64,000 nucleotides of DNA, taken from Acutalibacteraceae bacterium. Lineage in GTDB: Bacteria > Bacillota > Clostridia > Oscillospirales > Acutalibacteraceae. Numbering within the stretch: position 1 is the stretch's first letter; each line of letters begins with the position of its first letter. A model generated the notes under the pieces. It was not told the DNA's origin, ran no database searches, and was given only the letters and a program-made list of their open reading frames with translations. Of the stretch, positions 32,317 to 44,812 are shown piece by piece. The position numbers were made by a program, and so were the translations under genes. The DNA is taken from positions 1,772 to 65,771 of the forward strand of contig JAZOBD010000047.1 in assembly GCA_045595825.1 (NCBI GenBank). The letters run 5' to 3'.

Positions 32317-35300
32317 ATGAAAAAACTCACAAAAATTTTAGCCGTGCTGCTCAGCGTAGCTGTTGCTGTGTGCTCACTTCCGTTCGGCGCTTTTGCTGCG
32401 GATTACTCACAGACAGTTAGCAACGAGGGCAGATACGGTATGAAGGACTCTCTCGGTTATGCACTTACCGAGATGGTTGACGGCCACATCCTTGAAGAAA
32501 CCGTTGTCACCACAACCGAAACGGTTAAGGATTTGCCCGGCGTTTCTATGTTTGAAAGAAAAACGGGCTCACTTGTGGACGGCAAGAATTACGTTATCGT
32601 TACAACTACCGATGTACGTTCACTCTCCGCTGACGGCAACGGCTCCGCATCGCCCGTCGGCTATGCTGTCGGTGTCACCGGCACAAGCACAAAGGTAACA
32701 ACCGCAAGCGTTACCGATGAGTGGACAGACAATGTAATAGTGACTGATGATTTTACTTATGTCTGGAAATGGAATGCTGCCACAAGGACGTTCACAAACG
32801 TCGCAGACAGCAGTCTTTATCTCGGTATGGACGGCAGCGTTATGTCAACAGCCGCACAGACTGCTTGGACTGTGACCGAAACCGCAAATGCCGTTAACGG
32901 TCTTAATGCCTACACTTTCTACGGCAATAACGGCAGCGGCGATTACTATATGCGCTACCAGTACCATTCATCTTCCGGCGGCGAGGTTGTCCGTGTTTCG
33001 GGTACTGCTGCAAACTTCTTTGTTTTTGAAGAGGTACAGTATCCCTCCGGCTCTGAGAAGGCTTATTTCAGAACCGATGACGCTTTCGTCAACGGCGAAG
33101 AATATATGCTTGTTACCACCACGGCAAGTTCAGCAGGCGGTTCAACTGTAACCGGCTATCAGCGAATGACAGGCGATGCTCTTGTAAACGGCACGTCATA
33201 CATTATCGCTACAACAAATACAAGTGCCCGTGCGATGATTCTCAACGGCACAGGTATTGCAAGGTCCGGTGACTATATAAATTCAGGCTCTGCTTCTACA
33301 CTTTCCCTTGATGTTATTGATGACACAATGCTGTGGACTTATAATAACGGTTCTTTTCAAAATGTAAGCAATCCGGCTCGTTATCTTACAAACAGCGGCA
33401 ACAATGCTCTTACTACCGGCACTTCGGCAACAACCTGGACTGTCAGCCCTAACGGTGAAAATTACAGAATTTACCGTACTGTCAGTAACCAAGCCCGTTA
33501 CATTCAGTATGCCAGCAATACTTTTTCGCTGACCACAACCAGCACAAATCTTCACATTTATGAACCGATTGTTGAAACAACTGTCGGCGGCGAAGTTGAA
33601 AGCTCAACCGGTTATGCTCTCAACATCAGCGGTTCAACCGTTGGCGTAACATCCTCTGCCGTAACTCAGGGCTGGGGCAATGATGTTATTGTCTCCTCCG
33701 ATTCAGCTTCTGCATGGGTTTACAACAACGGCGTTTTCACCAACGTTTCAGACCCCTCCAAGACCCTTACTGTCGGTGGCGCATCCACATGGAACGGCAC
33801 TGCAACAAAAAATGCGGTAAACGGTTCTGTTACCGGTTATACACTTGCTTCCGGCTCAAGCTATCTTGATTATGAAGACGGCTCTGTCACTACCTCCTCA
33901 GAGCCCTACTATTTCATGGCTTATCAGGAAAAGTCTTATCCCGTTGCGGGCGGTACGGAAACGATAGTTGCAGAAACTGAAAACTTTGACATTGAAAGCG
34001 GCGAAAACTACGCAATTCTCGGCTTTGCAAACACAGCCCCCAATGCGCAGACCGCACATGGTGCCCTTACCAACAATATGGAAGAGGCAATTAACGGTGT
34101 TCAGTATTACTTCGGTTATACAGGCAGCGGCAGTAACGTTTCAACGGATGCTTTTGCCTGGGATATCAGAATTACCGAAGGTGCAAGAAACGGTATTACC
34201 GCATACAGCTTCTACGATAATGACGAAGAATACAACGTCCGTTATCAGTATAACAACGGCAGTGTCGTTGTACGCATTTCAGGTACACAGTGTTATTTCT
34301 TCGTGTTTGAAGAGACAGTTGAAAACGGCACTACGGTATTCAAGAGAATCGATACCGAGCTTACACCCGGTAAAAAATACATAATCGTTACCACCAACAA
34401 CGCAACAAGCTCTGACAGCACAGGTGTTACCGGCAGCGGTAACGCAATCTGTATCAATAACGGTGCAGTTTCCTACACCTCATCAAACGTAACGACAAAC
34501 TATGCCGACACAATCACAACCTGGGATGATTCTTATGTATTCCTTTATACCCCGGAAGGCTATTTTGCAAGCATGGACGGCGTTACCTATGACACCGCAC
34601 TTGCTGCTGACACAACTCCCACGTTTGACTCAGGCATCAGTCGTCTTGTTGACGGTGACCAGCCTGTTGACGATTTCACCTTCACAAAGGTTGATGACGG
34701 TTGGTATGTTTCTTACACAGAAAACGGCACAACCTATTACCTCAACATTTCATCAACTCAGGCAAGCTTTTCGACAACTCCTCAGGTGCTTGCAATCGAC
34801 ACCGCGGCAACTGCATCGACAGATGTTCCCTGCATCAGAATTTCAGATGCTTCAAAAACCAATTATCTCGCATATAACGGCACAACCTACGGCGTTTCAA
34901 CAAGCGCAACATCCGCAGAAACCGCACTTTATCCTTACGCCGAGGCACAGTTCCCCGTTGGCGAGGAATATTATGTTGAAATCGTTTACAACGGCGCTAT
35001 CATCAGCCAGACACTCCGCTGGATTGCTAATGTAACCGCCGCCGACACACGTCAGTTCGAATACGCAACCAACATTGATACAACTGACGCAAACACTTCG
35101 GTTATCTGGTCGATTGACGAACAGTATGACGTTGACGGTAACCTTATTACGGAAGCTGAAAAATCAATCGCAAGCATTAACGACAGTGGTTTTGCTTCTT
35201 TCACCGGTAACGAAGGTACAATCATTGTGAAGGTTTCCGTTGAATCTGCAATTGACTCAACCGGTGAAATCAGCTACGTTGCAACAGACTATATCAAGAT

Positions 35301-38300
35301 TATTGTTTCTGCCGGCGACATTCCTCCGCTGACAGATACATCTGACCACACAAACTTCCCCGAATATCCCAATGAAGGTTCCGTTTCAATTGATAAGTTC
35401 ATCAGCGAAAGCAACAATTTCTTCAGTGACGGTCTTCTTCAGCTTGATCTTGAAGTAACGGGCGTTCCCAAGAATGCGGGCGTTGACGTTGTTGTCGTTG
35501 TTGACTTCTCATCAAGTATGCTTAAAAACTACGTTTCCGGTGACGGAAGCACGGACCTTTCAACCAATAACCGTCTTATTTCCGCCGTCAACTCAACAAA
35601 CCTTTTCATTGATCAGGTTCTTGCGGCAAACGAAGACGGCTCCGCTTCCAACAACCGTGTTGCGGTTGTCCGTTTCTCACCCAACGGTGTTGCTGACCCC
35701 GCACTTAGCACAAACGGCAGCTACGGCTCAACGTCAGATTATGAAGACGGTTATGTTACACCGATGACCTCTGCCGCTGTCAACTGGAACAATATGGAAC
35801 ACGTCATTTCCGGCTTCGTCGGTGCTGACGAAAAGGCATCTCTCAAATCAAAGGTTTCCGCACTTCTGACCGAGGGTCAGGCCAGCGGTACAAACTATGA
35901 CGCAGGTCTCTGGTATGCAAAGCAACTCCTTGAAGAAGCTTACACCCCTGAACGCCAGCAGTTTGTTGTTTTCCTCAGTGACGGTAAACCCACACAGTAT
36001 AACAACAGAAGCTGGGAAAGTTCCAACAACAGCGCAAGCCAGGGTACAAGCGAGATCAACCTTTTGTTCTACCGTGAAATCGGTGCGTATAAGTTTGCAA
36101 CCAAGGGTCTTACCGCACTCAACGATCCAAGCGAGGTTGTCGGTTACGTTGAAGCGACGGGTGATTCTTCAGAAAAGTACTATGCCGATTACGGTGCAGG
36201 CCCCAGACCTCACGACCTTTCAGAGGCAATCAAAACAATGGGCGCAACCCTTTACACCATTGCATTCGACGTTCTTGAAACGTCTTCCGGTCTTGATGAC
36301 AACTACTATTTCACAGCCGCTCAGGCTATGGAAATTCTCAAGAAAATGGCATCTGTTGACGAAGCGGGTAATCCTCTTTCCTACAACGTTGCTTCAACCA
36401 ACGAGCTTGTCGGACTTCTTGGTGACATCGCCGGTGCAATCAAGCAGGCGGGTACAAGAGCTTATGTTGAAGATATCATCGGTTCAAACTTTGAGCTTCA
36501 GTATAAACCCGTACAGCTTCGTAACACAAACGAATACTTTACCCCTGAAATCACAATAACCAACTATCCGCTCAACGCTGACGGCACCCGTGATAAAGCG
36601 AATGCAACCATTATTGAATCTGTCAGATTTGAATATGATTCAGGCTCGGATACCTATTCCGCTTATTCATCAATTCTCGGTGATGACGTCAATATCCTCA
36701 GCTACACCGACGGTGTTGAGGCTGACGGTGTGATTACGGCAAGCAAGTTCACCTATAACTTTGCAACCCGGAAATTCAACTGGAACATCGGTGATATTAC
36801 ATCCGATCTGATTGTCCTTTCATACGATATTTATCTTACAGGCTCAGTGGAAGGCGAGGTTGAATCAGGTACATACGACACCAACCAATCAGCAATTCTT
36901 TATTATTACAATTACCTTGATAACCTTTGCTCGCTCACATTCCCCGTGCCTCAGGCTGTATGGGGTCAGGCAAAGATAAGCTACCAGTTCTACCTCGTAA
37001 ACGAGCAGGGTAAACCCGTTAACACAAAGGGTCAGGTAGTTCCTTTTGCCAACAGAGTTATTGTTGTTCCCGAGCAGGTTTACGCCACGGTCCTTCTCAA
37101 TGAACAGACGGTTACTCTGGACGCTATCTTCCTTGCTGCGGGCGACGTTCTTCCCGACGGATACACAATTTACACAAAGAACAATATTGATCCCGGCTAT
37201 GCTCTTTACACAGACTCTGCCGATATGGGCGGCGACGTTCTCTGGAGCAAATCCGAAACAATCGGTGACGCCGTTGTCGAATACAGAGGCGGTTCAAAGG
37301 GTATTGCACAGATGGGTACGTTCAACGACCTTGCTGTTGCGTTCCCGGTTCTGTTCAGCATCTCCGCATACCCCGACATTGTTGTTGCCGACTACGGTCT
37401 GCCCATCAACATCAATGTCATTGCAAACGACCTTGGCGTTGACAATGCAATTTACGGCCTCGGCACACAGGAAGCTGTTCTTCCCTCAGGTTCAACAACA
37501 TTCACAACTTCTCCCTATACGTCTGATGAAATCACACTCACAACACTGCGCAACGGTAATACGGTAACGTCAGGCAAGGCGGAACTTTACACACCGTCAA
37601 ACTCCAACACCAAGATGGTAAGATATACAATGGCAACTGATCTTGACCACGTTGAAACCTTCTGGTACGGCGCAGGTAATGCTGTTGAATCGAAATATGT
37701 CACAAGCTATGTCAAGGTTATTCCCGCAACCACCGTTTATTATGAGGATAACTTCGCATACGGCGACAGTTCGTGGATTGAATATGTCGGTGACTGGACT
37801 GCAACGGGCACACAGTCGCCCACACAAAACGGCACGCAGGATACCGACAGACCCGGTGCAGACAACAGATACGACGACGCAAATAATAACTACAACTACG
37901 ACAGCTCCTACACGGATTACAACACTTACAGCTACGGCTCTGCACACTTTGCAACCGAAACCGAAGAAAACGGCAGCAATCATTATGTTCAGTTCTGCTT
38001 CTCGGGCACGGGCTTTGATGTCATCAGCCGTACCAATAACGACACGGGTTATGTGATTGTTTGGGTGTATGACACCAACGGCACAGACTCGACCGCAGAC
38101 GATAAACTTGCATCCAAGCAGGTTATCGACACCTACTATTCATCCGGTGATCTTTATCAGATTCCCGTCATCAACTGCTACGACCTGCCTTATGCACGCT
38201 ACCGTGTAAAGATTGGTGTCGTTCACAGTGAGATTCTTGCCGACACGGATGAGGGTAACTACACCTTCTACATTGATGCTGTCAAGGTTTACAATCCCGT

Positions 38301-39360
38301 TGATCCCTTCGGCGATGATAAAGAGGTTGCTACCGACGCTTACATTGCCGACAACGAGGCATTTACAACAACGCTTGAAATGCGTGATATCCTTATTTCG
38401 CAGGATAACACAGTCCAGTCGGGCACTGACGGCGGCGTTGTTTACATCGACGGCAGCACAACGCAGGAGATCGGTGAGCACACAAATCAGCTTGACAGAC
38501 TCATCGGCAGCGATGACGATTCAAAGCTTGCTCTGCTCAACGCTCTTACCTTTGCAAACGCAGGTCCCAACAATGAGGTTTATGTCGGCCCCGGTCAGAC
38601 AATTGCATTTAAGATTGCGGGTAACAACCTCAACAAGATAACGTCTGTTCAGCTCGGTGCAAAGGCTCCTGAGGGCGCTGCGGCAAATATGGTTGTTTCT
38701 TACATTGCCGTTTCGGGCGAAACAAGAAACACCTACACCCAGACTCTTGCCGTTAACAGAGAGATTGCAACTGCAACCGATATGTATTACAACATCACAC
38801 CTGCTGTTTCAATCGACCGTGACAGCGACAGTTCAGCAACCAAGACAAAGACAATCGTCATCACCAACACAGGCGACGGAATTCTTGCTTTGTCAAACCT
38901 CAAAATTGCAACCGCATCTGCTCTCGGCACATCAACATCCAACTCCGAAACAGACGAAGAGTTTGTAATTGAAGCTGTTCTCAATGCGGCTTCCATGGGA
39001 CTTAACAATTACGGCGAGGCACTTGTTGCTTCTTATCTGCTTACCGTTTCAGATGAAAATGCAACTGCGGGCAGTGTGTTCACTTATACTGTCGGCAATG
39101 AGCCCAATGCCGAAAAACCCGAAAAGCCCGAAAATCCCGATAAGCCCGACAACACGGATAAACCTGGCGCAACCGATAAACCCGTCGATTCAGATGACTC
39201 AGAAACTCCCGAGCCTCCTCAGGAGCCTGAAAAAGCTCCTGAAAACGCACACAACGGTATTCTTAACAAGATTATTGATGCAATTATCGGCGTGTTCAGT
39301 TACATCTGGAATTTCATCAAGCCTTTGGTAACGGGTGCGTTCCAAAAGTTTTCGCTTTGA
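32317..39360 (+). CDS. Very large secreted vWA-domain adhesin-like protein (2347 aa)
   Basis: Signal peptide; repeated GxxYxIvtt modules; vWA MIDAS DFSSS...SGTNY...FLSDG; Pro/Glu/Lys linker; amphipathic tail without LPXTG. Confidence 0.8.
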   Translation: MKKLTKILAVLLSVAVAVCSLPFGAFAADYSQTVSNEGRYGMKDSLGYALTEMVDGHILEETVVTTTETVKDLPGVSMFERKTGSLVDGKNYVIVTTTDVRSLSADGNGSASPVGYAVGVTGTSTKVTTASVTDEWTDNVIVTDDFTYVWKWNAATRTFTNVADSSLYLGMDGSVMSTAAQTAWTVTETANAVNGLNAYTFYGNNGSGDYYMRYQYHSSSGGEVVRVSGTAANFFVFEEVQYPSGSEKAYFRTDDAFVNGEEYMLVTTTASSAGGSTVTGYQRMTGDALVNGTSYIIATTNTSARAMILNGTGIARSGDYINSGSASTLSLDVIDDTMLWTYNNGSFQNVSNPARYLTNSGNNALTTGTSATTWTVSPNGENYRIYRTVSNQARYIQYASNTFSLTTTSTNLHIYEPIVETTVGGEVESSTGYALNISGSTVGVTSSAVTQGWGNDVIVSSDSASAWVYNNGVFTNVSDPSKTLTVGGASTWNGTATKNAVNGSVTGYTLASGSSYLDYEDGSVTTSSEPYYFMAYQEKSYPVAGGTETIVAETENFDIESGENYAILGFANTAPNAQTAHGALTNNMEEAINGVQYYFGYTGSGSNVSTDAFAWDIRITEGARNGITAYSFYDNDEEYNVRYQYNNGSVVVRISGTQCYFFVFEETVENGTTVFKRIDTELTPGKKYIIVTTNNATSSDSTGVTGSGNAICINNGAVSYTSSNVTTNYADTITTWDDSYVFLYTPEGYFASMDGVTYDTALAADTTPTFDSGISRLVDGDQPVDDFTFTKVDDGWYVSYTENGTTYYLNISSTQASFSTTPQVLAIDTAATASTDVPCIRISDASKTNYLAYNGTTYGVSTSATSAETALYPYAEAQFPVGEEYYVEIVYNGAIISQTLRWIANVTAADTRQFEYATNIDTTDANTSVIWSIDEQYDVDGNLITEAEKSIASINDSGFASFTGNEGTIIVKVSVESAIDSTGEISYVATDYIKIIVSAGDIPPLTDTSDHTNFPEYPNEGSVSIDKFISESNNFFSDGLLQLDLEVTGVPKNAGVDVVVVVDFSSSMLKNYVSGDGSTDLSTNNRLISAVNSTNLFIDQVLAANEDGSASNNRVAVVRFSPNGVADPALSTNGSYGSTSDYEDGYVTPMTSAAVNWNNMEHVISGFVGADEKASLKSKVSALLTEGQASGTNYDAGLWYAKQLLEEAYTPERQQFVVFLSDGKPTQYNNRSWESSNNSASQGTSEINLLFYREIGAYKFATKGLTALNDPSEVVGYVEATGDSSEKYYADYGAGPRPHDLSEAIKTMGATLYTIAFDVLETSSGLDDNYYFTAAQAMEILKKMASVDEAGNPLSYNVASTNELVGLLGDIAGAIKQAGTRAYVEDIIGSNFELQYKPVQLRNTNEYFTPEITITNYPLNADGTRDKANATIIESVRFEYDSGSDTYSAYSSILGDDVNILSYTDGVEADGVITASKFTYNFATRKFNWNIGDITSDLIVLSYDIYLTGSVEGEVESGTYDTNQSAILYYYNYLDNLCSLTFPVPQAVWGQAKISYQFYLVNEQGKPVNTKGQVVPFANRVIVVPEQVYATVLLNEQTVTLDAIFLAAGDVLPDGYTIYTKNNIDPGYALYTDSADMGGDVLWSKSETIGDAVVEYRGGSKGIAQMGTFNDLAVAFPVLFSISAYPDIVVADYGLPININVIANDLGVDNAIYGLGTQEAVLPSGSTTFTTSPYTSDEITLTTLRNGNTVTSGKAELYTPSNSNTKMVRYTMATDLDHVETFWYGAGNAVESKYVTSYVKVIPATTVYYEDNFAYGDSSWIEYVGDWTATGTQSPTQNGTQDTDRPGADNRYDDANNNYNYDSSYTDYNTYSYGSAHFATETEENGSNHYVQFCFSGTGFDVISRTNNDTGYVIVWVYDTNGTDSTADDKLASKQVIDTYYSSGDLYQIPVINCYDLPYARYRVKIGVVHSEILADTDEGNYTFYIDAVKVYNPVDPFGDDKEVATDAYIADNEAFTTTLEMRDILISQDNTVQSGTDGGVVYIDGSTTQEIGEHTNQLDRLIGSDDDSKLALLNALTFANAGPNNEVYVGPGQTIAFKIAGNNLNKITSVQLGAKAPEGAAANMVVSYIAVSGETRNTYTQTLAVNREIATATDMYYNITPAVSIDRDSDSSATKTKTIVITNTGDGILALSNLKIATASALGTSTSNSETDEEFVIEAVLNAASMGLNNYGEALVASYLLTVSDENATAGSVFTYTVGNEPNAEKPEKPENPDKPDNTDKPGATDKPVDSDDSETPEPPQEPEKAPENAHNGILNKIIDAIIGVFSYIWNFIKPLVTGAFQKFSL

Positions 39361-39391
39361 TGAAACCGACAATAAATCAGAGGTGAGTAAA

Positions 39392-39628
39392 ATGAAAAAA
39401 GCTTATAAAAAGCCTGAAATGTATATTGAAAACTTCCGCCTGTCGGTTAATATTGCAGGATGCTCGAAGGCGGCGGGATTAAGCGAATACGAGTGCGGCG
39501 TTGACCTCGGCTGGGGTGAATCCCTTTTCCTTGAGGGTAACCTTGCCTGCACGGTGTTTGACTGGGATCCCAACAATAAGGTCTGCTACAACCAGCCTTT
39601 CGCAAGCGGAGTTTTGTTCGGCTCATAA
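39392..39628 (+). CDS. Putative RiPP precursor peptide (78 aa, 4 Cys, C-terminal Ser)
   Basis: gaggtg RBS; MKKAYKKPEMYIENF leader with YxxP; sits at the head of a radical SAM/kinase/nucleotidyltransferase/peptidase cassette. Confidence 0.7.
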   Translation: MKKAYKKPEMYIENFRLSVNIAGCSKAAGLSEYECGVDLGWGESLFLEGNLACTVFDWDPNNKVCYNQPFASGVLFGS

Positions 39629-39636
39629 TTAAACAG

Positions 39637-39666
39637 AAAAGCCATGCCACGTGGCATGGCTTTTTT
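39637..39666 (+). terminator. Perfect palindromic hairpin between precursor and maturase genes
   Basis: aaaagccatgccac/gtggcatggctttt 28-bp palindrome followed by a T run. Confidence 0.75.
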
Positions 39667-39684: not shown

Positions 39685-40383
39685 TTGAAACTTTTTATAA
39701 AAGTTATTTCCTGCGTGCTTGCAGCGTTGCTGTTCGTTTTGCCGCTGTGTTCATGTGACGGCAAGGGTGATGACACCTCCACGCAAAGCACACACAACCG
39801 ACCGCTGATGAATGAGTTTCCCTGGACGTTTGCCAACGAGGGGATAGAGGTTGTTGACATCGGCCAATACAGAGGAGCTTTTCTTGAGGACGGAAGCGAT
39901 ACTCTTATCAACAACGTTCTTATGATTATTGTTCACAATCCCACCGATAAACCGTTGCAATATGCCGAAATCACTCTTTTTGCGGGCGATGACCTTGCTT
40001 ATTTCGATGTTTCGACTTTGCCTGCGGGTGAAAGTGCGGTTGTTCTTGAGCGTAATATGTTGCCCTATGAAGAGGATTACAGATATTTGCTCAAAAACAT
40101 GCAGACCGCTTATTTCACCGACGGTGTTTGTACACTGCAAGAAGACGTTTTTGAAATAACGGGCGACAACAGTCAGCTTTCGGTTAAGAACATAAGCGAA
40201 AAAGACGTAGACGGCACCGTGAAAATTTATTACAAAACTTTCAAAGACGGCTATTATTACGGCGGAATCACTTACAACGTTTCAATTGATTCACTTGCAA
40301 GCGGTCAGACAAAAACCGTGCCTGCGGGTCACTTTATAAAGGATTATTCACAGCTTATGTTTGTGACATATTTAAATGAATGA
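39685..40383 (+). CDS. Lipoprotein of unknown function in the RiPP-like cassette
   Basis: TTG start after gaggag; lipobox PLCSC; beta-rich body; stop overlaps next start. Confidence 0.75.
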   Translation: MKLFIKVISCVLAALLFVLPLCSCDGKGDDTSTQSTHNRPLMNEFPWTFANEGIEVVDIGQYRGAFLEDGSDTLINNVLMIIVHNPTDKPLQYAEITLFAGDDLAYFDVSTLPAGESAVVLERNMLPYEEDYRYLLKNMQTAYFTDGVCTLQEDVFEITGDNSQLSVKNISEKDVDGTVKIYYKTFKDGYYYGGITYNVSIDSLASGQTKTVPAGHFIKDYSQLMFVTYLNE

Positions 40384-41257
40384 TATGACTGTCAGATACT
40401 ATGAAATCGGCGGATTGATAATTGAAATTTCAGCCGATTTTGATTATGAAGAAAGCGGATATTCACGCTTTTTTCTTACAAACAAAAGAAGAATGCCTGA
40501 TGCACGCTATATCTTCAAAAGTGGCGAAATGCCTGCGTTGCCCGAAAAAGAGGTGATGCGTGAAGATAAATTCCGTGTCTGTCAGTCCGAGGAAAAAACT
40601 TTTACGGTTTTTTCACGCCACGAAAGCGGCGACCCCGAGGATATGGCGGATTATGCGTGCCTGAGTTATGATAATGCCGCTGACGGCATTTTTACCGCTG
40701 AGGTCACTGTTTTACCTGCGGGTGAAGGCTATTTCAGCGGAAGCTACCTTGTTTTTAACGTGCTTGCCGTTGAGCATCTTTTTCTGAGAAACGGAATAAT
40801 GCTTCTTCATTCGTCGTTTCTTCGCTTAAAAGACGGTACTGCGCTTTTGTTTACGGGCAGGTCAGGAATCGGCAAGTCCACTCAGGCGGAGCTCTGGGAA
40901 AAATACGAGGGTGCCGAGCTGATTAACGGCGACAATGCTCTGCTTTATAAGCGTGACGGTGTGTGGTATGCCTCGGGTCTGCCGTTTGCAGGCACTTCCG
41001 GTGTTTGCAAAAATGCGGAATGTCCCGTAAAAGCTGTTGTCGGCATTGAGTGGAGTGACACCAGCACAGCTTCACGGCTTTCGGGCGCATCTGCGCTGAA
41101 AACGCTGTATTCGGGCGTTTTTCAGTGCGTGTGGCACCGTGAAGATATGACGTCTGCCTTTGACCTCGCACTTGATTATGTGCAGAATATGCCCGTTGTT
41201 TTACTCAGCTGCACACCCGATAAATCCGCCGTTGAGGCGTTAAAGGAAATAATATGA
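40376..41257 (+). CDS. HPr-kinase-like P-loop protein (RiPP-associated kinase-like)
   Basis: LLHSS, GRSGIGKST and INGDN pattern resembling the His-Lys-Asp motif of lasso-peptide kinases. Confidence 0.72.
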   Translation: MNDMTVRYYEIGGLIIEISADFDYEESGYSRFFLTNKRRMPDARYIFKSGEMPALPEKEVMREDKFRVCQSEEKTFTVFSRHESGDPEDMADYACLSYDNAADGIFTAEVTVLPAGEGYFSGSYLVFNVLAVEHLFLRNGIMLLHSSFLRLKDGTALLFTGRSGIGKSTQAELWEKYEGAELINGDNALLYKRDGVWYASGLPFAGTSGVCKNAECPVKAVVGIEWSDTSTASRLSGASALKTLYSGVFQCVWHREDMTSAFDLALDYVQNMPVVLLSCTPDKSAVEALKEII

Positions 41258-42372
41258 AAAATATGTCGAATGAGGCCGCACTCGCAACTTTTCTGCACGC
41301 AAAAGCCGCAAGGCAGGGTATACCCGTGTCGGGAAACTTCGAGCTTACGCGCCGCTGTAACTTCAACTGCAAAATGTGCTATGTGCACTCTGCCGAAACT
41401 TGTTGCTTTGATGAGGAGCTGACGGGCAGGCAGTGGCTTGACATTGCTGAGGGTGCAAAGCAGTCAGGTACCGTCTTTTTGCTGTTGACCGGCGGTGAGC
41501 CTCTTGTCAGAAACGATTTTGAAGAAATCTGGGTTAACCTCAAAAAAATGGGTTTTGCCCTTTCACTCAATACAAATGCATCGCTTATTACCCCCGAAAT
41601 CCTTGAACTTTTCAGGCGCTATCCGCCAATGAGGGTCAACGTTTCGCTTTACGGTGCGAGTGACGAAACCTATCAGTCACTTTGCGGTAACAAGGCTTTT
41701 TCAAAGGTTGTCGGCAATATATCGGCACTGAAAGAGCTTGATATTCAAGTGAAACTCAGCGCGAGTGTAACTGAGCAGAATTACGGTGATCTGCCCGAGA
41801 TTTTCAGAATTTCGCGCGAATTCGGTTGCTATGTGCAGACAAGCGCCTATATGTTTCCGCCCGTGCGCCGTGATATCAGCTTTGTCGGCGCAGGGGACAG
41901 GGTGAGTCCCGAAACGGCGGCACTTTATTCAGTGGGCTGTGACAGCCTGAGATATGAACGTGACGAGTATCTTAACCGCGCACGTGCTACGTTAAAGGGA
42001 ATCTCAATTCCCGACCCGGAAGATGAGTGCAGAGCTCCGGGTGCGGCACCGATTGACTGCCGCGCGGGCAAATGCACCTTCTGGATTAATTTTGACGGCA
42101 CAATGACACCTTGCGGAATGATGTTTGAGCCCACCGCTGACGTTGTGAAAAACGGTTTTGCTTCGGCGTGGGAAAGCATCAAAGAGCAAACGGCTCTTTT
42201 GCATCAGCCTGCCGAGTGTGTCAGCTGTAATCTTAAAAACATCTGCTCTGTCTGTGCAGCAAAATCACTTGCCGAAACGGGAAGTTGTGACAAAAAGCCT
42301 GAGTACCTTTGCCGTATGACAAAGGAAATCATAAAGCTTACCGAAAAGGAGCTTGAGAAAACGGATGAATAA
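41254..42372 (+). CDS. Radical SAM protein with SPASM domain
   Basis: CNFNCKMC (CxxxCxxC), TGGEP; CRAG...GTMTPC and CVSC...CSVC...C auxiliary cluster ligands. Confidence 0.92.
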   Translation: MKNMSNEAALATFLHAKAARQGIPVSGNFELTRRCNFNCKMCYVHSAETCCFDEELTGRQWLDIAEGAKQSGTVFLLLTGGEPLVRNDFEEIWVNLKKMGFALSLNTNASLITPEILELFRRYPPMRVNVSLYGASDETYQSLCGNKAFSKVVGNISALKELDIQVKLSASVTEQNYGDLPEIFRISREFGCYVQTSAYMFPPVRRDISFVGAGDRVSPETAALYSVGCDSLRYERDEYLNRARATLKGISIPDPEDECRAPGAAPIDCRAGKCTFWINFDGTMTPCGMMFEPTADVVKNGFASAWESIKEQTALLHQPAECVSCNLKNICSVCAAKSLAETGSCDKKPEYLCRMTKEIIKLTEKELEKTDE

Positions 42373-43576
42373 AGCGCAGGAACAGCTTCTGGAGTTGCTC
42401 AAAGCATATTTCAACTCACAGACGCCGCTCATATCCGAAAGCGAGGATATAAGCGGTGCGTTGCGCCTTGCCGAAATGCACAAACTTCTGCCGATTGCGC
42501 GTCACGCCGCAAATTCGTTGCCGCAGATTAGCTCTTTGGAAGGTGCGTCTGCAAATTTATTGCGCCAGATGTCGCTTAACGATGTTATCTACCAGACAAA
42601 GAAAACAGCGGCATTAAAAGAAATACTTGCCGATTTTGAAAAAGCAGGTATAACCGCCCTTGTTGTCAAGGGTGCGGCGGTTGCCGTTTGTTATAACAAT
42701 CCCGATTACAGAGTTTCTTCGGATGAGGATATTTTTATCCGCCGTGAGGATTTACATCGCTGTGCCGATATTCTGCAAAATTCGGGCTTCACAGATATTG
42801 ACGGTATAAAAACGAATAAAGATGTATATTTATTCAAAAACGATGAAAAAATTATTCATCTTGAATTGCACGTTTCACTGCTTCCGTCTGGCACCAAAAA
42901 CTATAAACATCTCAACGAATTGTTTGCCGCCGCTTTCAATGACAGTTACACCATTGATTTTGATGGTACCAGAATAAAAACTCTGCCGGCGACAGAGCAT
43001 CTGATTTTTCTTGTTGCCCACGCTTTCAAGCATTTTGTTCACTCGGGCTTTGGTATCCGTCAGCTTTGCGATGTTCTTGTTTTTACCCGTAAAAACAGTG
43101 AAAGTATTGATTTTGCGCAGGTTGACGCTTGTTTCTCAGCTTTGCGTGCGGATAAATTCTTTGGCGCACTGCTTAAAATCGGCAGTGAATATCTCGGGTT
43201 TTCCGATTTGGATTCTTTGAAAGTGAAAGCTCCCGACGGCGACTGCAATGACCTTCTGTGTGATGTATTTGAAGCGGGAATTTTCGGAAAAAGTAATGAA
43301 AACAGAATGAAAAGTGCTGCTGCAACCGATGCCGCCGCACGTGCGGGCAGGGGAAAAAATACGCTTTCTTTGTTCTTCCCACCGCTTGAAATAATGCGGG
43401 AAAGATATGCTGTTTTGCATAAATATTCTTTTTTGCTACCTCTTTACTGGCTTGTCAGGGCGGTTGAGTATTTGTTTGGAATGAGAAAATCAGACAGTGC
43501 AACATCTCCGTTTGCAAGCGCCGATATTGCCGCAAAACGTCTTGAATTACTGCGACATTATGATATAATTGATTAG
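42365..43576 (+). CDS. Nucleotidyltransferase family protein (NTP_transf_5-like)
   Basis: VVKG...Y...RVSSDEDI, ELH and HAFKHF...GIRQLCD motifs. Confidence 0.82.
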   Translation: MNKAQEQLLELLKAYFNSQTPLISESEDISGALRLAEMHKLLPIARHAANSLPQISSLEGASANLLRQMSLNDVIYQTKKTAALKEILADFEKAGITALVVKGAAVAVCYNNPDYRVSSDEDIFIRREDLHRCADILQNSGFTDIDGIKTNKDVYLFKNDEKIIHLELHVSLLPSGTKNYKHLNELFAAAFNDSYTIDFDGTRIKTLPATEHLIFLVAHAFKHFVHSGFGIRQLCDVLVFTRKNSESIDFAQVDACFSALRADKFFGALLKIGSEYLGFSDLDSLKVKAPDGDCNDLLCDVFEAGIFGKSNENRMKSAAATDAAARAGRGKNTLSLFFPPLEIMRERYAVLHKYSFLLPLYWLVRAVEYLFGMRKSDSATSPFASADIAAKRLELLRHYDIID

Positions 43577-44057
43577 GGTGAGAGCTTTGAAAGACTTTGA
43601 AAAATCCCGAAGCAGGGTTGTTGACCCTGAGGTTTTTCTGACCGCCTTTGAGAAATACGCAGGGCTGTCACAACCGATGCCGCTTGTTGTTACGGGGTCA
43701 AGTATGTCTCCGTTTCTCTGCGCAGGGCGTGACAGGGTGTTTTTGTCAAAGCCTGTCAGTGCACCCGTTAAGGGTGATATTGTTCTTTACCGCCGACTTA
43801 ACGGCGAAATCTGGCTTCACCGTGTTTATGATGTAAAAGATGGCGTTTATTCTTTGGTCGGCGACCGACAGATACAGATTGAAAGCGGAATTCCGCACGA
43901 AAATCTGCTTGCTGTTGTAACGGCTGTTGAGCGAAAAGGAAAAATGCTGACCCCTGAAAGTGCACTGTGGCGCTTTTTTGCAAATAAGTGGCTTGAATTG
44001 ATTCCCAAACGGCCTTTAATTTTAAAAATTTTTCGCAAACTGAAAGGAGAACTCTGA
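43569..44057 (+). CDS. S24/S26-family peptidase (signal-peptidase-like, Ser-His type)
   Basis: TGSSMSPFL, GDIVLYRR and LHRV; start uncertain (TTG 43569 or GTG 43578). Confidence 0.8.
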   Translation: MIRVRALKDFEKSRSRVVDPEVFLTAFEKYAGLSQPMPLVVTGSSMSPFLCAGRDRVFLSKPVSAPVKGDIVLYRRLNGEIWLHRVYDVKDGVYSLVGDRQIQIESGIPHENLLAVVTAVERKGKMLTPESALWRFFANKWLELIPKRPLILKIFRKLKGEL

Positions 44058-44812
44058 TGGTTAATGTAATTTCTCACCGCGGCGCAAACACTTTTGCACC
44101 GCAGAACACTTTGCCCGCCTTTCAAAAATCCTTTTCAATCTCCGTTGATGGTATTGAAACCGATATTCACGTGACAAAAGACGGTGTTCCCGTTGTTTGC
44201 CACAACTACACAATTGATGAAACCTCAACGGGCGTCGGCGAAATCTGTGACCTTACCCTCGAAGAGCTTCGCAGTTACGATTTCGGCTCATATTTTGACA
44301 AGGAATTTGAGGGCACAAAAATCCCCACGCTTGACGAGTTGCTCGACCTTTGCGCCACTGCAAACCTTACCGTGCTTAACATTGAGCTTAAATCGCCCCG
44401 CAACAAAGATTCAGACATTGTCAAAAAGACCATTGATGCAGTCAAGGCGCACGGTTTGTTTGACGTGCTTCTTATTTCAAGCTTTGATTCAGAACTTCTC
44501 ATTGAGGCCAAACAGATTGACCCTGCCTGCAAAACTGCTTATCTTTATGCACCCACAATGCTTAAGTCAATTCACAAATGGTTCAATGCTGTAAAGTTTG
44601 CCAAGAAAATCAACTGCGATGCTTTGCATCCTCATTACAGCTTTGTTACAAAGCACTACGTTAAAGCTAGCCACAAGGCCGGAATTCGGGTTAATCCCTG
44701 GACCGTCAATTCTCCCGAGGTTATGTTGCAAATGATTTCTTGCGGCGTTGACGGCCTCATAACCGACCGTCCCGACATTGCAAACTCCCTTCTTGGCAAA
44801 AAGACAAAATAA
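44057..44812 (+). CDS. Glycerophosphodiester phosphodiesterase
   Basis: SHRGA...PQNT, ETDIHVTKDG...CH, NIELK and GLITDRP. Confidence 0.9.
   Translation: MVNVISHRGANTFAPQNTLPAFQKSFSISVDGIETDIHVTKDGVPVVCHNYTIDETSTGVGEICDLTLEELRSYDFGSYFDKEFEGTKIPTLDELLDLCATANLTVLNIELKSPRNKDSDIVKKTIDAVKAHGLFDVLLISSFDSELLIEAKQIDPACKTAYLYAPTMLKSIHKWFNAVKFAKKINCDALHPHYSFVTKHYVKASHKAGIRVNPWTVNSPEVMLQMISCGVDGLITDRPDIANSLLGKKTK

What the first reader, a model, noticed from the sequence alone, without database searches (positions are those of the whole stretch)
39392..39628. Precursor anatomy: YxxP leader, four Cys, aromatic motifs and a terminal Ser
Seen: MKKAYKKPEMYIENFRLSVNIA-GCSKAAGLSEYECGVDLGWGESLFLEGNLACTVFDWDPNNKVCYNQPFASGVLFGS*. 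Known: YxxP is the RRE-binding leader motif of lasso precursors; paeninodin-type kinases phosphorylate a C-terminal Ser, and in pseudomycoidin the nucleotidyltransferase is linked to glycosylation of that phospho-Ser. Inference: Ser78 is the kinase target, and the radical SAM links Cys to Asp/Glu/Asn/Thr (ranthi/sacti) or crosslinks W/Y/F three-residue motifs (WGE, WDP, YNQ).
Basis: partly seen in the sequence, partly recalled or inferred. Interest (0 to 1): 0.7.

Follow-up and report, generated by a model that had tools for sequence, protein, structure and literature searches.

The report
Precursor of a radical-SAM/kinase peptide cassette
This 78-residue gene is a real member of a large, unnamed family of small peptides from gut Clostridia that are almost certainly modified after translation by a radical-SAM enzyme and a kinase-like enzyme; its YxKP leader, four cysteines and final serine are conserved across the family, and the gene nearly always sits directly after a giant cell-surface protein gene.

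Summary
The ORF at 39392-39628 reads exactly as described. It has a ribosome-binding site and a terminator hairpin. An exhaustive HMMER scan found 133 further cluster representatives, 129 of them 68-100 aa and most aligning over nearly their whole length. No source or library names the family. Across 289 distinct members, Tyr5, Pro8 and the four Cys are near-invariant. Ser is the last residue in 278 and lies within the last two residues in all 289.

The conserved cassette is: giant VWA surface protein, precursor, lipoprotein, ScmC-type P-loop protein, radical SAM/SPASM enzyme, PqqD. The ScmC-type protein has a PEPCK/HPr-kinase fold. The PqqD is most like lasso B1 recognition proteins. The nucleotidyltransferase and S24 peptidase in this window are accessory (10 and 6 of 85 sources). 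They match LppN and LppS of the linear polyphosphorylated peptides described in 2026. The window itself has no PqqD.

Best reading: a precursor of a new radical-SAM plus kinase peptide family. Phosphorylation of Ser78 and Cys thioether cross-links are plausible but unproven. Novelty: new variant of a known kind. Interest 0.7.

The parts
32317..39360 (+). Giant (2347 aa) secreted surface protein. It has a signal peptide, a VWA/MIDAS domain (DFSSS, aa ~1058-1229) and a hydrophobic C-terminal tail. Its stop lies 31 nt before the precursor start.
   Evidence: ORF and translation. Weak Pfam VWA_2/VWA hits. The part from aa ~950 to 2270 is conserved in the giants of related loci. A large ORF lies directly upstream of 47/58 precursor genes.
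39380..39387 (+). Ribosome-binding site GAGGTGAG, 4 nt before the ATG.
   Evidence: Read directly from the sequence.
39392..39457 (+). Leader region of the precursor (aa 1-22, MKKAYKKPEMYIENFRLSVNIA). It carries the Y5-x-K7-P8-x-M10 recognition-type motif and the F/E/F/L/S/I/A conserved positions. The exact leader/core cut is not known.
   Evidence: This is the most conserved block of the family. The motif fits the lasso/LPP recognition motif described in PMC13381572.
39458..39625 (+). Core region (aa 23-78). Invariant Cys24 (39461-39463), Cys35 (39494-39496), Cys53 (39548-39550) and Cys65 (39584-39586). Conserved aromatic positions F46, Y66 and F76. Motif C-Y-x-x-P. Terminal Ser78 (39623-39625).
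   Evidence: The AlphaFold2 model of the peptide alone has low confidence (pLDDT 55.6), as expected for an unfolded substrate peptide.
39626..39628 (+). Stop codon TAA directly after Ser78.
39637..39664 (.). Terminator-like hairpin (12 bp stem, 6 G-C pairs, T-run) between the precursor and the downstream genes. Probably a partial terminator that keeps precursor transcript levels above enzyme transcript levels.
   Evidence: The attenuator role is inference.
39685..40383 (+). 232-aa lipoprotein (lipobox LCSC) with a weak, sub-cutoff FxLYD-domain hit at its C-terminal end. A core cassette gene of unknown role.
   Evidence: Sub-cutoff NCBIfam FxLYD_dom hit. Homologues in 55/85 sources, next to the precursor or the radical SAM gene.
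40376..41257 (+). ScmC-type P-loop protein (293 aa; GRSGIGKST; invariant H145, K167, D186). Putative peptide kinase.
   Evidence: Homologues carry PF27840 ScmC. AlphaFold2 pLDDT 94. Foldseek matches PEPCK (E 6.5e-8) and HPr kinase/phosphorylase (E ~5e-6). Profile hits to HprK are weak, E ~0.3.
41254..42372 (+). Radical SAM/SPASM enzyme (372 aa). CX3CX2C at C35/C39/C42 and seven SPASM Cys. No fused N-terminal recognition domain.
   Evidence: Pfam Radical_SAM 5e-24. No NCBIfam family reaches its cutoff. Nearest solved structure is SkfB, 1.9e-16. The seven SPASM Cys and C35 and C42 are invariant in 70/70 relatives; C39 is present in 69/70.
42353..43576 (+). NTP_transf_5 nucleotidyltransferase (407 aa, D124-E-D126), like PsmN and LppN. 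Accessory gene.
   Evidence: Pfam PF14907 4e-44. Present in 10/85 sources. Role of PsmN in PMC6993621. LppN in PMC13381572.
43569..44057 (+). S24/S26-type peptidase resembling archaeal-type signal peptidase I (162 aa). GSSMSP Ser45 and His84 are 39 residues apart, as are Ser29 and His68 in LppS. No membrane segment. Candidate leader peptidase; accessory gene.
   Evidence: Pfam Peptidase_S24 and NCBIfam sigpep_I_arch, both sub-cutoff. Present in 6/85 sources, next to NTP5 or PqqD. LppS precedent. Motif positions.
44057..44812 (+). Glycerophosphodiester phosphodiesterase. Its start overlaps the S24 stop. Co-operonic here and in the closest relative only. Link to the peptide unknown.
   Evidence: Pfam GDPD 6e-46. 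Present in 3/85 sources. Also follows PqqD in L001.

Best explanation
The ORF encodes the precursor peptide of a previously undescribed family of ribosomally made, post-translationally modified peptides (RiPPs) that is widespread in gut and rumen Clostridia.

Shown:
- The peptide family, its invariant positions and the six-gene cassette: giant VWA surface protein, precursor, lipoprotein, ScmC-type P-loop protein, radical SAM/SPASM enzyme, PqqD.
- The kinase fold of the ScmC-type protein.
- The intact radical-SAM and SPASM cysteine motifs.
- The lasso-B1-like nature of the cassette's PqqD.

Inferred mechanism:
1. The N-terminal ~22 residues act as a leader. Its Y-x-K-P-x-[IVLM] motif is held by the PqqD-type recognition protein. 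That protein is missing from this window, so here recognition would have to be in trans or direct.
2. The radical SAM/SPASM enzyme acts on the core, most probably using the four invariant Cys as thioether donors (sacti- or ranthipeptide-type chemistry).
3. The ScmC-type kinase phosphorylates a hydroxyl. The only invariant Ser or Thr is the C-terminal Ser78, which sits in a fixed-length C-Y-x-x-P-x6-F-x-S tail.
4. In this window's variant, an LppN/PsmN-like nucleotidyltransferase may decorate the phosphate, and an LppS-like S24 peptidase may remove the leader.

The product probably works at the cell surface together with the co-encoded lipoprotein and giant VWA protein. That last step is speculative.
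For: The ORF is real and has signals for expression.

The family is large: 133 further cluster representatives in the exhaustive scan and 152 hits in the profile search, all unnamed.

The cassette was recovered from the kinase side: at least 585 relatives in species-representative genomes. Of the 84 fetched loci and the window, 75 had more than 1.5 kb upstream of the ScmC gene, and 56 of those 75 carry a precursor hit, which in the canonical layout lies just upstream of that gene. Radical SAM is present in 75 sources and PqqD in 56. It was also recovered from the precursor side: all 5 look-ups that started from a precursor, as well as the kinase-side loci.

The ScmC-type model has pLDDT 94 and matches PEPCK and HprK/P. 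H145, the P-loop and D186 are invariant and align to the HprK LH, GxGKS and DD motifs.

Radical SAM: CX3CX2C and seven SPASM Cys are invariant or nearly so. The nearest solved structure is the sactisynthase SkfB.

The cassette's PqqD profile matches TbiB1 at 2.6e-11, against PqqD proper at 0.015. The lasso PqqD model hits 22/22 members.

The peptide alone is predicted to be unstructured.

Experimental precedents: phosphorylation of a terminal Ser by PadeK and PsmK, and a PsmN-dependent hexose on the phosphate (PMC6993621); an SpI-like leader peptidase working with a recognition protein and an HprK-like kinase (PMC13381572).
Against: - No experiment exists for any member.
- The window lacks PqqD, although LppS-type peptidases need a recognition protein. 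This copy may depend on a gene elsewhere or be impaired.
- Sequence similarity of the ScmC-type protein to HprK is weak (E ~0.3), and no family model reaches its cutoff. It could be an ATPase or scaffold rather than a Ser kinase.
- In LPP the kinase targets Ser3 of the core, not a terminal Ser.
- The radical SAM enzyme scores similarly against haem-, MoaA-, PqqE-, MftC- and sactisynthase-type models, so thioether chemistry is not singled out.
- No exporter, and in most loci no protease, is part of the cassette. This is unusual for a secreted RiPP.
- Only one weak metatranscriptome trace was found, and it stops at the precursor start.
Confidence: 0.55

Rival explanations
1. The peptide follows LPP-like logic. 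The kinase phosphorylates Ser18, just after a cleavage site F12-E13-x14 | F15-x-L-S18, analogous to LPP's F-E-T | x-x-S3. The terminal Ser is conserved for another reason, such as enzyme recognition or export.
For: The family motif I-x-F-E-[S/D/N]-F-x-L-S resembles LPP's I-x-F-E-T-x-x-S. In LPP, F-3, E-2 and T-1 are needed for cleavage and Ser3 is the sole phospho-site. The window carries LppS-like and LppN-like genes. L061 even reads FETFALS.
Against: Ser18 is Ser in only 94/130 members (Ala 12, Thr 10, Asn 7), whereas LppK does not accept Thr. By the way the loci were found, the kinase-like gene is present in every source, whereas the peptidase is in only 6/85. The terminal Ser is conserved in effectively all members.
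Confidence: 0.12
2. The invariant aromatic-x-Ser C-terminus (F76-G77-S78) is a substrate motif for the radical SAM enzyme itself. The chemistry could be a three-residue cyclophane (aromatic ring to the beta-carbon of residue +2) or MftC-like chemistry at the C-terminus. The ScmC-type protein then does something other than phosphorylating Ser78.
For: Position 76 is aromatic in 129/130 members and Ser78 is invariant. The Cys4-to-end spacing is fixed at 13 residues. The radical SAM enzyme scores about as well against the C-C cross-linking or C-terminal-modifying enzymes WgkB, MftC and PqqE as against sactisynthases. That three-residue cyclophanes use aromatic-x-x motifs is from my own knowledge of triceptides and was not checked here.
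Against: It leaves the four invariant Cys and the ubiquitous kinase-fold protein without a role. No model of a known cyclophane synthase reaches its cutoff.
Confidence: 0.15
3. It is not a RiPP. It is a small accessory subunit or chaperone of the giant VWA surface protein, with the four Cys forming disulfides or a metal site, and the enzymes act on something else.
For: The gene lies directly after a giant ORF in 47/58 cases, with gaps of -26 to +50 nt. This holds even in a rearranged cassette. The cassette has no exporter and usually no protease.
Against: The peptide has no signal peptide, although the giant protein is secreted. It has a leader-like, strongly conserved N-terminus with the lasso-type motif, and a lasso-B1-like PqqD is in the cassette. 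The peptide has no confident fold even with a 106-sequence alignment. A radical SAM/SPASM enzyme with PqqD is a hallmark of peptide modification.
Confidence: 0.08
4. It is a chance ORF, or a family artefact of gene calling.
For: The word-indexed search found only the query itself. No Pfam or NCBIfam model matches.
Against: There are 133 cluster representatives besides the query in the exhaustive scan, 129 of them small proteins that mostly align over nearly their whole length, with invariant positions, a fixed genomic position, a ribosome-binding site and a terminator.
Confidence: 0.01

Closest known systems
Linear polyphosphorylated peptides (LPP) of Bacilli (Popov et al., Nat Commun 2026, PMC13381572)
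   Same: A leader with a YxxPx[V/I] motif followed by an I-x-F-E motif. A discrete lasso-type recognition protein at family level. A kinase of the HprK/PEPCK fold. An NTP_transf_5-type transferase (LppN) and a soluble archaeal-type signal-peptidase-like leader peptidase (LppS), both present in this window. Located near cell-surface or polysaccharide genes.
   Different: LPP has no radical SAM enzyme and its product is linear. The LPP kinase is a recognisable HprK-family member and phosphorylates Ser3 of the core. LPP has an MsbA-like exporter. LPP precursors have variable C-termini, whereas this family has four invariant Cys and an invariant terminal Ser. LPP occurs in Bacilli, this family in Clostridia. 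The window has no recognition protein and no exporter.
Paeninodin/pseudomycoidin-type phosphorylated lasso peptides (PMC6993621)
   Same: A [Y/W]xxP leader bound by a B1 (PqqD) protein. A C-terminal Ser that is (poly)phosphorylated by an HprK-like kinase. A PsmN-type nucleotidyltransferase that adds hexose to the phosphate.
   Different: Among the ORFs of at least 140 aa at 26-52 kb, none was recognised as a lasso cyclase (Asn-synthetase-like) or a B2 protease, and none was called at the related loci. A radical SAM/SPASM enzyme is the core modifier instead. The core is 55 residues or more with four Cys.
Sactipeptides and ranthipeptides (for example SkfB, AlbA, PapB, CteB systems)
   Same: A radical SAM enzyme with a full SPASM domain, a PqqD-type recognition element and a Cys-containing precursor. 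The nearest solved structure is the sactisynthase SkfB.
   Different: No family model reaches its cutoff. The recognition element is a separate protein rather than fused to the enzyme, and it is of lasso-B1 type. A kinase-fold protein is an obligate partner. The usual peptidase-transporter is absent. The cross-links are unknown.
SynChlorMet (SCM) cassette: ScmC, ScmD, ScmE, ScmF (TIGRFAM/NCBIfam, bioinformatic only)
   Same: A ScmC-type P-loop protein together with a PqqD homologue and a radical SAM/SPASM enzyme. The Pfam family PF27840 'ScmC' covers the homologues.
   Different: SCM has two radical SAM genes, and (from my memory of its TIGRFAM description, not checked here) occurs in unrelated bacteria and archaea and has no identified precursor. 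NCBIfam ScmC, ScmD, ScmE and ScmF models are hit only far below their cutoffs.

Membership tests
RiPP precursor recognised by a lasso-type (B1/PqqD) recognition protein | Leader motif [Y/W]xxPx[L/V/I/F/A] | tested here: met
   Y5 129/130 and P8 129/130. Position 10 is I, V, L or M in 128/130. The window has YKKPEM. Motif definition taken from PMC13381572.
RiPP precursor recognised by a lasso-type (B1/PqqD) recognition protein | A discrete PqqD-type recognition protein encoded in the cluster | tested here: not met
   No PqqD match in any frame of the 64-kb window. It is met at family level: 56/85 sources, with a profile that matches TbiB1 at 2.6e-11.
Paeninodin-type phosphorylated lasso peptide | Lasso cyclase (Asn-synthetase-like) and B2 cysteine protease in the cluster | tested here: not met
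   No ORF of at least 140 aa at 26-52 kb was recognised as either enzyme. Seven of them were scanned against Pfam and NCBIfam. Neither enzyme appears among the called genes of related loci.
Paeninodin-type phosphorylated lasso peptide | C-terminal Ser as the phospho-acceptor of an HprK-like kinase | not testable with these tools
   The terminal Ser is conserved (278/289 as the last residue) and a kinase-fold partner is present. The phospho-site needs mass spectrometry.
Linear polyphosphorylated peptides (LPP) | Core gene set: SpI-like peptidase, discrete recognition protein, HprK-like kinase, NTP transferase, MsbA-like exporter | tested here: not met
   Present: an S24/SpI-like peptidase (sub-cutoff hits), NTP_transf_5, and a kinase-fold protein of the ScmC type. 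Absent: a recognition protein and an exporter.
Linear polyphosphorylated peptides (LPP) | Leader consensus YxxPxVLxHQxIxFETxxS, and a linear product with no cyclising enzyme | tested here: not met
   The family consensus is YxKPxIxFExFxLSxxIA. It shares YxxPx[VI] and IxFE but is 6 residues shorter. A radical SAM/SPASM enzyme is a core gene.
Sacti-/ranthipeptide | Radical SAM enzyme with CX3CX2C and a SPASM domain that can bind two auxiliary clusters | tested here: met
   C35 and C42 and the seven SPASM Cys are invariant in 70/70 relatives; C39 is present in 69/70. Pfam Radical_SAM 5e-24.
Sacti-/ranthipeptide | Cys sulfur to carbon thioether bridges in the product | not testable with these tools
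   The four invariant Cys are consistent with this. It needs MS/MS and NMR.
Sacti-/ranthipeptide | Maturase belongs to a curated sactisynthase or ranthisynthase family | tested here: not met
   StsB 67.8 bits (cutoff 625), SkfB 65.2 (300), AlbA 55.5 (850), PapB 50.8 (340).
SynChlorMet cassette | ScmC equivalog plus two radical SAM/SPASM genes (ScmE, ScmF) plus ScmD | tested here: not met
   There is only one radical SAM gene. TIGR04249 ScmC scores 16-25 bits against homologues (cutoff 125). ScmE scores 72 bits (cutoff 400). Pfam PF27840 'ScmC' does cover the homologues.
HPr kinase/PEPCK-fold P-loop kinases | Fold, Walker A motif, and conserved His and Asp | tested here: met
   Foldseek probability 1.00 to PEPCK and HprK/P. 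GxSGxGKST, H145 and D186 are invariant. The motif alignment to 1jb1 and 1ko7 is weak by E-value, 0.24-0.33.

The most novel reading that the evidence does not exclude
The cassette makes a new kind of cell-surface peptide adduct. A radical-SAM cross-linked peptide ends in a phosphorylated (and, in this window, further decorated) Ser. It is not a diffusible bacteriocin. It is a dedicated partner of the giant VWA surface protein encoded directly upstream, for example by docking its phospho-Ser and free carboxylate into the metal-ion (MIDAS) site of the VWA domain, with the lipoprotein assisting. This would be the first RiPP that combines radical-SAM chemistry with HprK/PEPCK-fold phosphorylation, and the first tied functionally to an adhesin-like giant protein.
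Probability: 0.15. Interest if true: 0.85.

Novelty: new variant of a known kind. Interest (0 to 1): 0.7.

Why it matters
The family is widespread. At least 585 relatives of the kinase-like gene occur in species-representative genomes of gut and rumen Clostridia. The precursor has no name in any source and matches no Pfam or NCBIfam model, and I found no description of it in the searchable literature.

It joins two modification logics that have so far been studied separately: radical SAM/SPASM cross-linking, and the phosphorylation, nucleotidyl-transfer and SpI-peptidase logic of paeninodin-type lasso peptides and LPP. It uses a lasso-type leader and recognition pair to do so.

The strict conservation of the terminal Ser and the four Cys gives direct, cheap experimental handles. 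The constant pairing with a giant VWA surface protein points to a role in the cell envelope or in adhesion of abundant gut anaerobes rather than a classical antibiotic role.

Tried and rejected
- Word-indexed homologue search with the single peptide found only the peptide itself. The exhaustive HMMER scan was needed.
- Pfam and NCBIfam give nothing for the precursor or for divergent relatives.
- Matches of the precursor to long proteins (P0142, P0171, P0232, P0251). The one examined in detail, P0142, matches through short repeats inside IPT/TIG domains. They match residues specific to this window (ACxxxDWxxxxxC..P), not the family-conserved ones. Judged spurious.
- AlphaFold2 of the precursor, run to look for Cys pairing, gave a low-confidence model that is unusable for geometry.
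- Sequence-only profile search of the ScmC-type protein against PDB gave only E ~0.3 to HprK. The fold comparison was needed.
- Expression. One gut metatranscriptome holds low-depth contigs over the 3' end of the giant gene, running 10 nt into the precursor (39146-39401). There is no coverage of the rest of the precursor or of the enzymes, and DNA carry-over is possible. Not informative.
- Literature searches for ScmC/SynChlorMet, for radical SAM with HPr kinase or HprK, for ranthipeptide with kinase, and for radical SAM with von Willebrand found no description of this family.
- Taxonomic origin of the window could not be read from cluster members. It is inferred only from the relatives (Clostridia MAGs) and from the gut, faeces and sheep-gut metagenomes that hold the sequence.
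- A search of the 19 loci that have enough upstream sequence but no precursor hit found no further convincing precursors next to ScmC. It did find a divergent YIKP...CKFT...S peptide type further downstream.
Full report
OBSERVATION. GAGGTGAG lies 4 nt upstream of the ATG. A 12-bp G+C-rich hairpin with a T-run follows at 39637-39664. The four Cys are residues 24, 35, 53 and 65, and Ser78 is the last codon.

IS IT MORE THAN CHANCE? The word-indexed search returned only the peptide itself. An exhaustive HMMER scan of 1.84 billion cluster representatives returned 134 proteins including the query. Of these, 130 (the query and 129 others) are 68-100 aa, and most align over nearly their whole length. 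A profile search added 152 proteins, none with a name other than 'hypothetical protein' and none with a Pfam domain.

In an alignment of the 130 representatives the following are invariant or nearly so: Y5 (129), K7 (119), P8 (129), F15 (122), I21/A22, C24 (130), C35 (129), C53 (130), C65 (130), F46 (121), Y66 (125), P69 (122), F76 (122) and S78 (130 aligned).

In 289 distinct sequences, Ser is the literal last residue in 278 and lies within the last two residues in all 289. 242 have exactly four Cys. The tail from Cys4 to the end is 13 residues long in 213 of those 242. 170 have no Trp. So the leader motif, the four Cys and the terminal Ser are family signatures. The conserved aromatic positions are 46, 66 and 76.

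Because these sets were gathered by similarity to the peptide, I repeated the test from the neighbouring gene. Small ORFs next to ScmC-type genes in 84 independently fetched loci show the same features. This includes 142-150-aa divergent versions that still end in ...LS, and a three-Cys YIKP...YCKFT...S type.

SURROUNDINGS. Downstream on the same strand lie:
- a lipoprotein (39685-40383);
- a 293-aa P-loop protein (40376-41257);
- a radical SAM/SPASM enzyme (41254-42372);
- an NTP_transf_5 nucleotidyltransferase (42353-43576);
- an S24/signal-peptidase-like protein (43569-44057);
- a glycerophosphodiester phosphodiesterase (44057-44812).

Upstream, ending 31 nt before the precursor, is a 2347-aa secreted protein with a weak VWA/MIDAS hit.

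THE CASSETTE. A profile of the P-loop protein found at least 585 relatives in species-representative genomes. The 80 loci kept come mostly from Clostridia: Oscillospiraceae, Acutalibacteraceae, Faecousia, Lachnospiraceae, Anaerostipes butyraticus and Terrisporobacter muris. A few are from Erysipelotrichaceae. Most are gut or rumen MAGs.

With HMMs built in-session, the recurrent order is giant protein, precursor, lipoprotein, ScmC-type protein, radical SAM, PqqD. Of the 85 sources searched (84 fetched loci plus the window), 75 had more than 1.5 kb of sequence upstream of the ScmC gene, and 56 of those 75 gave a precursor hit. Counted over all 85 sources, the lipoprotein is in 55, radical SAM in 75 and PqqD in 56. 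The nucleotidyltransferase occurs in 10, the S24 peptidase in 6 and GDPD in 3.

All five look-ups that started from precursors returned the same six genes and no other conserved neighbour. In particular there was no exporter.

A large ORF (median 2086 aa, many cut by locus ends) lies directly upstream of 47 of 58 precursor genes, with gaps of -26 to +50 nt. The pairing survives in a rearranged cassette: L044 runs ScmC, radical SAM, giant, then the peptide 1 nt after the giant's stop. The giants share a ~1300-aa C-terminal module that includes the VWA domain.

THE ENZYMES. Homologues of the P-loop protein carry Pfam PF27840 'ScmC'. The local Pfam and NCBIfam copies give no hit above cutoff; the sub-threshold hits are to HprK_rel_B, ScmC and HprK_rel_A. 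Its AlphaFold2 model is confident (pLDDT 94). It matches ATP-dependent PEPCK (E 6.5e-8) and HPr kinase/phosphorylase (E ~5e-6, TM 0.44-0.52 on the target). The invariant H145, GxSGxGKST and D186 align with the HprK LH, P-loop and DD motifs. A phosphotransferase function is therefore well supported at fold level. The substrate is not shown.

The radical SAM enzyme has CX3CX2C and seven SPASM Cys. All are invariant in 70/70 relatives except C39, which is present in 69/70. It has no fused recognition domain. Its nearest solved structure is the sactisynthase SkfB. It reaches no curated family cutoff, and it scores similarly against haem, MoaA, PqqE, MftC, WgkB and sactisynthase models.

The cassette's PqqD proteins are most like lasso B1 proteins. 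TbiB1 (5v1u) scores 2.6e-11 over the full length, followed by 9x90, 9x8z and TfuB1, while PqqD proper scores 0.015. The lasso PqqD models hit 21-22 of 22 members, below their cutoffs. This fits the Y-x-x-P-x-[IVL] leader.

The window itself contains no PqqD in any frame. The slot after the radical SAM gene is taken by the nucleotidyltransferase and the peptidase. In L015 the order is radical SAM, PqqD, NTP5, S24.

The peptide alone gives a low-confidence model (pLDDT 55.6 with 106 sequences), as expected for a substrate peptide rather than a small folded protein.

LITERATURE. PadeK and PsmK phosphorylate the side chain of the C-terminal Ser, and PsmN is required for hexose addition to the phosphorylated peptide (PMC6993621).

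A closer precedent appeared in 2026: linear polyphosphorylated peptides (LPP) of Bacilli (PMC13381572). [quoted passage not shown] Their leader consensus is YxxPxVLxHQxIxFETxxS. LppS cuts after T-1 only when LppB presents the leader. LppK polyphosphorylates Ser3 of the core.

The window's NTP_transf_5 and S24 genes correspond to LppN and LppS. In the S24 protein, GSSMSP Ser45 and His84 are 39 residues apart, as are Ser29 and His68 in LppS, and there is no membrane segment. That paper mentions no radical SAM enzyme. No searchable paper combines HprK, radical SAM and RiPP.

MOST LIKELY MECHANISM.

Shown: the family, its invariant residues, the cassette, the kinase fold, the intact radical-SAM and SPASM motifs, and the lasso-type recognition protein at family level.

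Inferred:
1. Residues 1-22 form a leader that is held through Y5, P8 and a hydrophobic residue at position 10.
2. The radical SAM/SPASM enzyme cross-links the core, most simply through the four invariant Cys as thioether donors.
3. The ScmC-type kinase phosphorylates the one invariant Ser or Thr, Ser78. It sits in a fixed-length C-Y-x-x-P-x6-F-x-S tail that looks like a recognition module.
4. In this window the LppN/PsmN-like enzyme may extend the phosphate, and the LppS-like peptidase may remove the leader.

Two cut sites are conceivable. One is after F12-E13-x14, by analogy with LPP's F-E-T. The other is around I21/A22, which reproduces the lasso register Y-17, P-14, L-12. That register is from my own knowledge and was not checked here.

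I give about 0.85 to 'genuine RiPP precursor of this cassette' and about 0.5 each to 'Ser78 is the phospho-acceptor' and 'Cys thioethers'. The composite statement gets 0.55.

RIVALS.
(a) LPP-like phosphorylation of Ser18 in FE[SDN]|FxLS. This is attractive by motif, but Ser18 is Ser in only 72% of members.
(b) The aromatic-x-Ser C-terminus is itself the radical SAM substrate, through a three-residue cyclophane or C-terminal chemistry. This would also explain the invariance of positions 76 and 78.
(c) The peptide is an unmodified partner subunit of the giant protein. This is argued against by the leader, the PqqD and the lack of both a signal peptide and a fold.
(d) A chance ORF. This is refuted.

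WHAT WEAKENS THE CASE FOR THIS PARTICULAR COPY. The window has no recognition protein. No exporter is present. The only RNA trace is weak and stops just inside the precursor start. A near-identical strain variant differs only at S44A, so the gene is maintained.

VERDICT.

The feature is a member of a large, unannotated peptide family that combines radical-SAM chemistry with the lasso/LPP-type recognition, kinase, transferase and peptidase toolkit. It is genetically welded to a giant VWA surface protein. I rate it a new variant of a known kind, with interest 0.7.

Noticed in passing
window 32317-39360, with 39392-39628; also L044:9964-16405, L085, L087, L089-L091: The precursor gene lies directly after a giant (about 1100-2700 aa) VWA-containing surface protein gene in 47/58 cases, with gaps of -26 to +50 nt. 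This holds even when the cassette order is rearranged. It suggests a functional tie between the peptide and the giant protein.
   Followed up: partly
window 1-64000: No PqqD-type recognition protein is encoded anywhere in the window, although 56/85 sources carry one right after the radical SAM gene. Here that position holds the nucleotidyltransferase and the S24 peptidase.
   Followed up: yes
window 44057-44812; L001:5189-5947: A glycerophosphodiester phosphodiesterase gene overlaps the S24 stop codon and so looks co-operonic. It also follows PqqD in the closest relative, but it is found in only 3/85 sources. A link to a phosphodiester on the peptide is conceivable but untested.
   Followed up: no
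L036:16525-16755, L044:16169-16405, L069:15093-15332, L073:16403-16648: A divergent sister peptide type (M..YIKP...C...C...YCKFT...S, three Cys). In L044 it lies right after the giant gene of a ScmC, radical SAM, giant arrangement. The context of the other three was not examined. It keeps the YxKP start and the terminal Ser.
   Followed up: partly
L010:7489-7917, L043:7140-7577, L082:7345-7797: Long (142-150 aa) precursor-like ORFs upstream of ScmC have the same leader and still end in ...LS. L010 is from the cultured strain Anaerostipes butyraticus JCM 17466.
   Followed up: no
L032:4144-14014: Two tandem cassettes, each with its own precursor, ScmC and radical SAM genes and with several PqqD genes between them, in one Erysipelotrichaceae MAG.
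   Followed up: no
L015 (Terrisporobacter muris DSM 29186), L007 (Faecousia intestinalis CLA-AA-H192): Cultured strains carry the cassette. L015 has the fullest layout (precursor, ScmC, radical SAM, PqqD, NTP5, S24), which makes it the natural experimental system.
   Followed up: no
window 39637-39664: A strong terminator-like hairpin sits between the precursor and the downstream genes. This is the usual arrangement for keeping precursor mRNA in excess over enzyme mRNA.
   Followed up: no
L033, L057 (S24 next to PqqD); L015, L084, window (S24 next to NTP5): The S24/SpI-like peptidase gene, where present, is usually adjacent to a PqqD or NTP_transf_5 gene. This is consistent with a recognition-protein-guided leader peptidase module like LppS/LppB.
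   Followed up: partly
window 29699-32101 (- strand): An 800-aa secreted protein is encoded divergently upstream of the giant gene. From the sequence alone it looks like a metallophosphoesterase with Ig-like repeats and an SLH-like C-terminus. It was not scanned and no relation to the cassette was seen.
   Followed up: no
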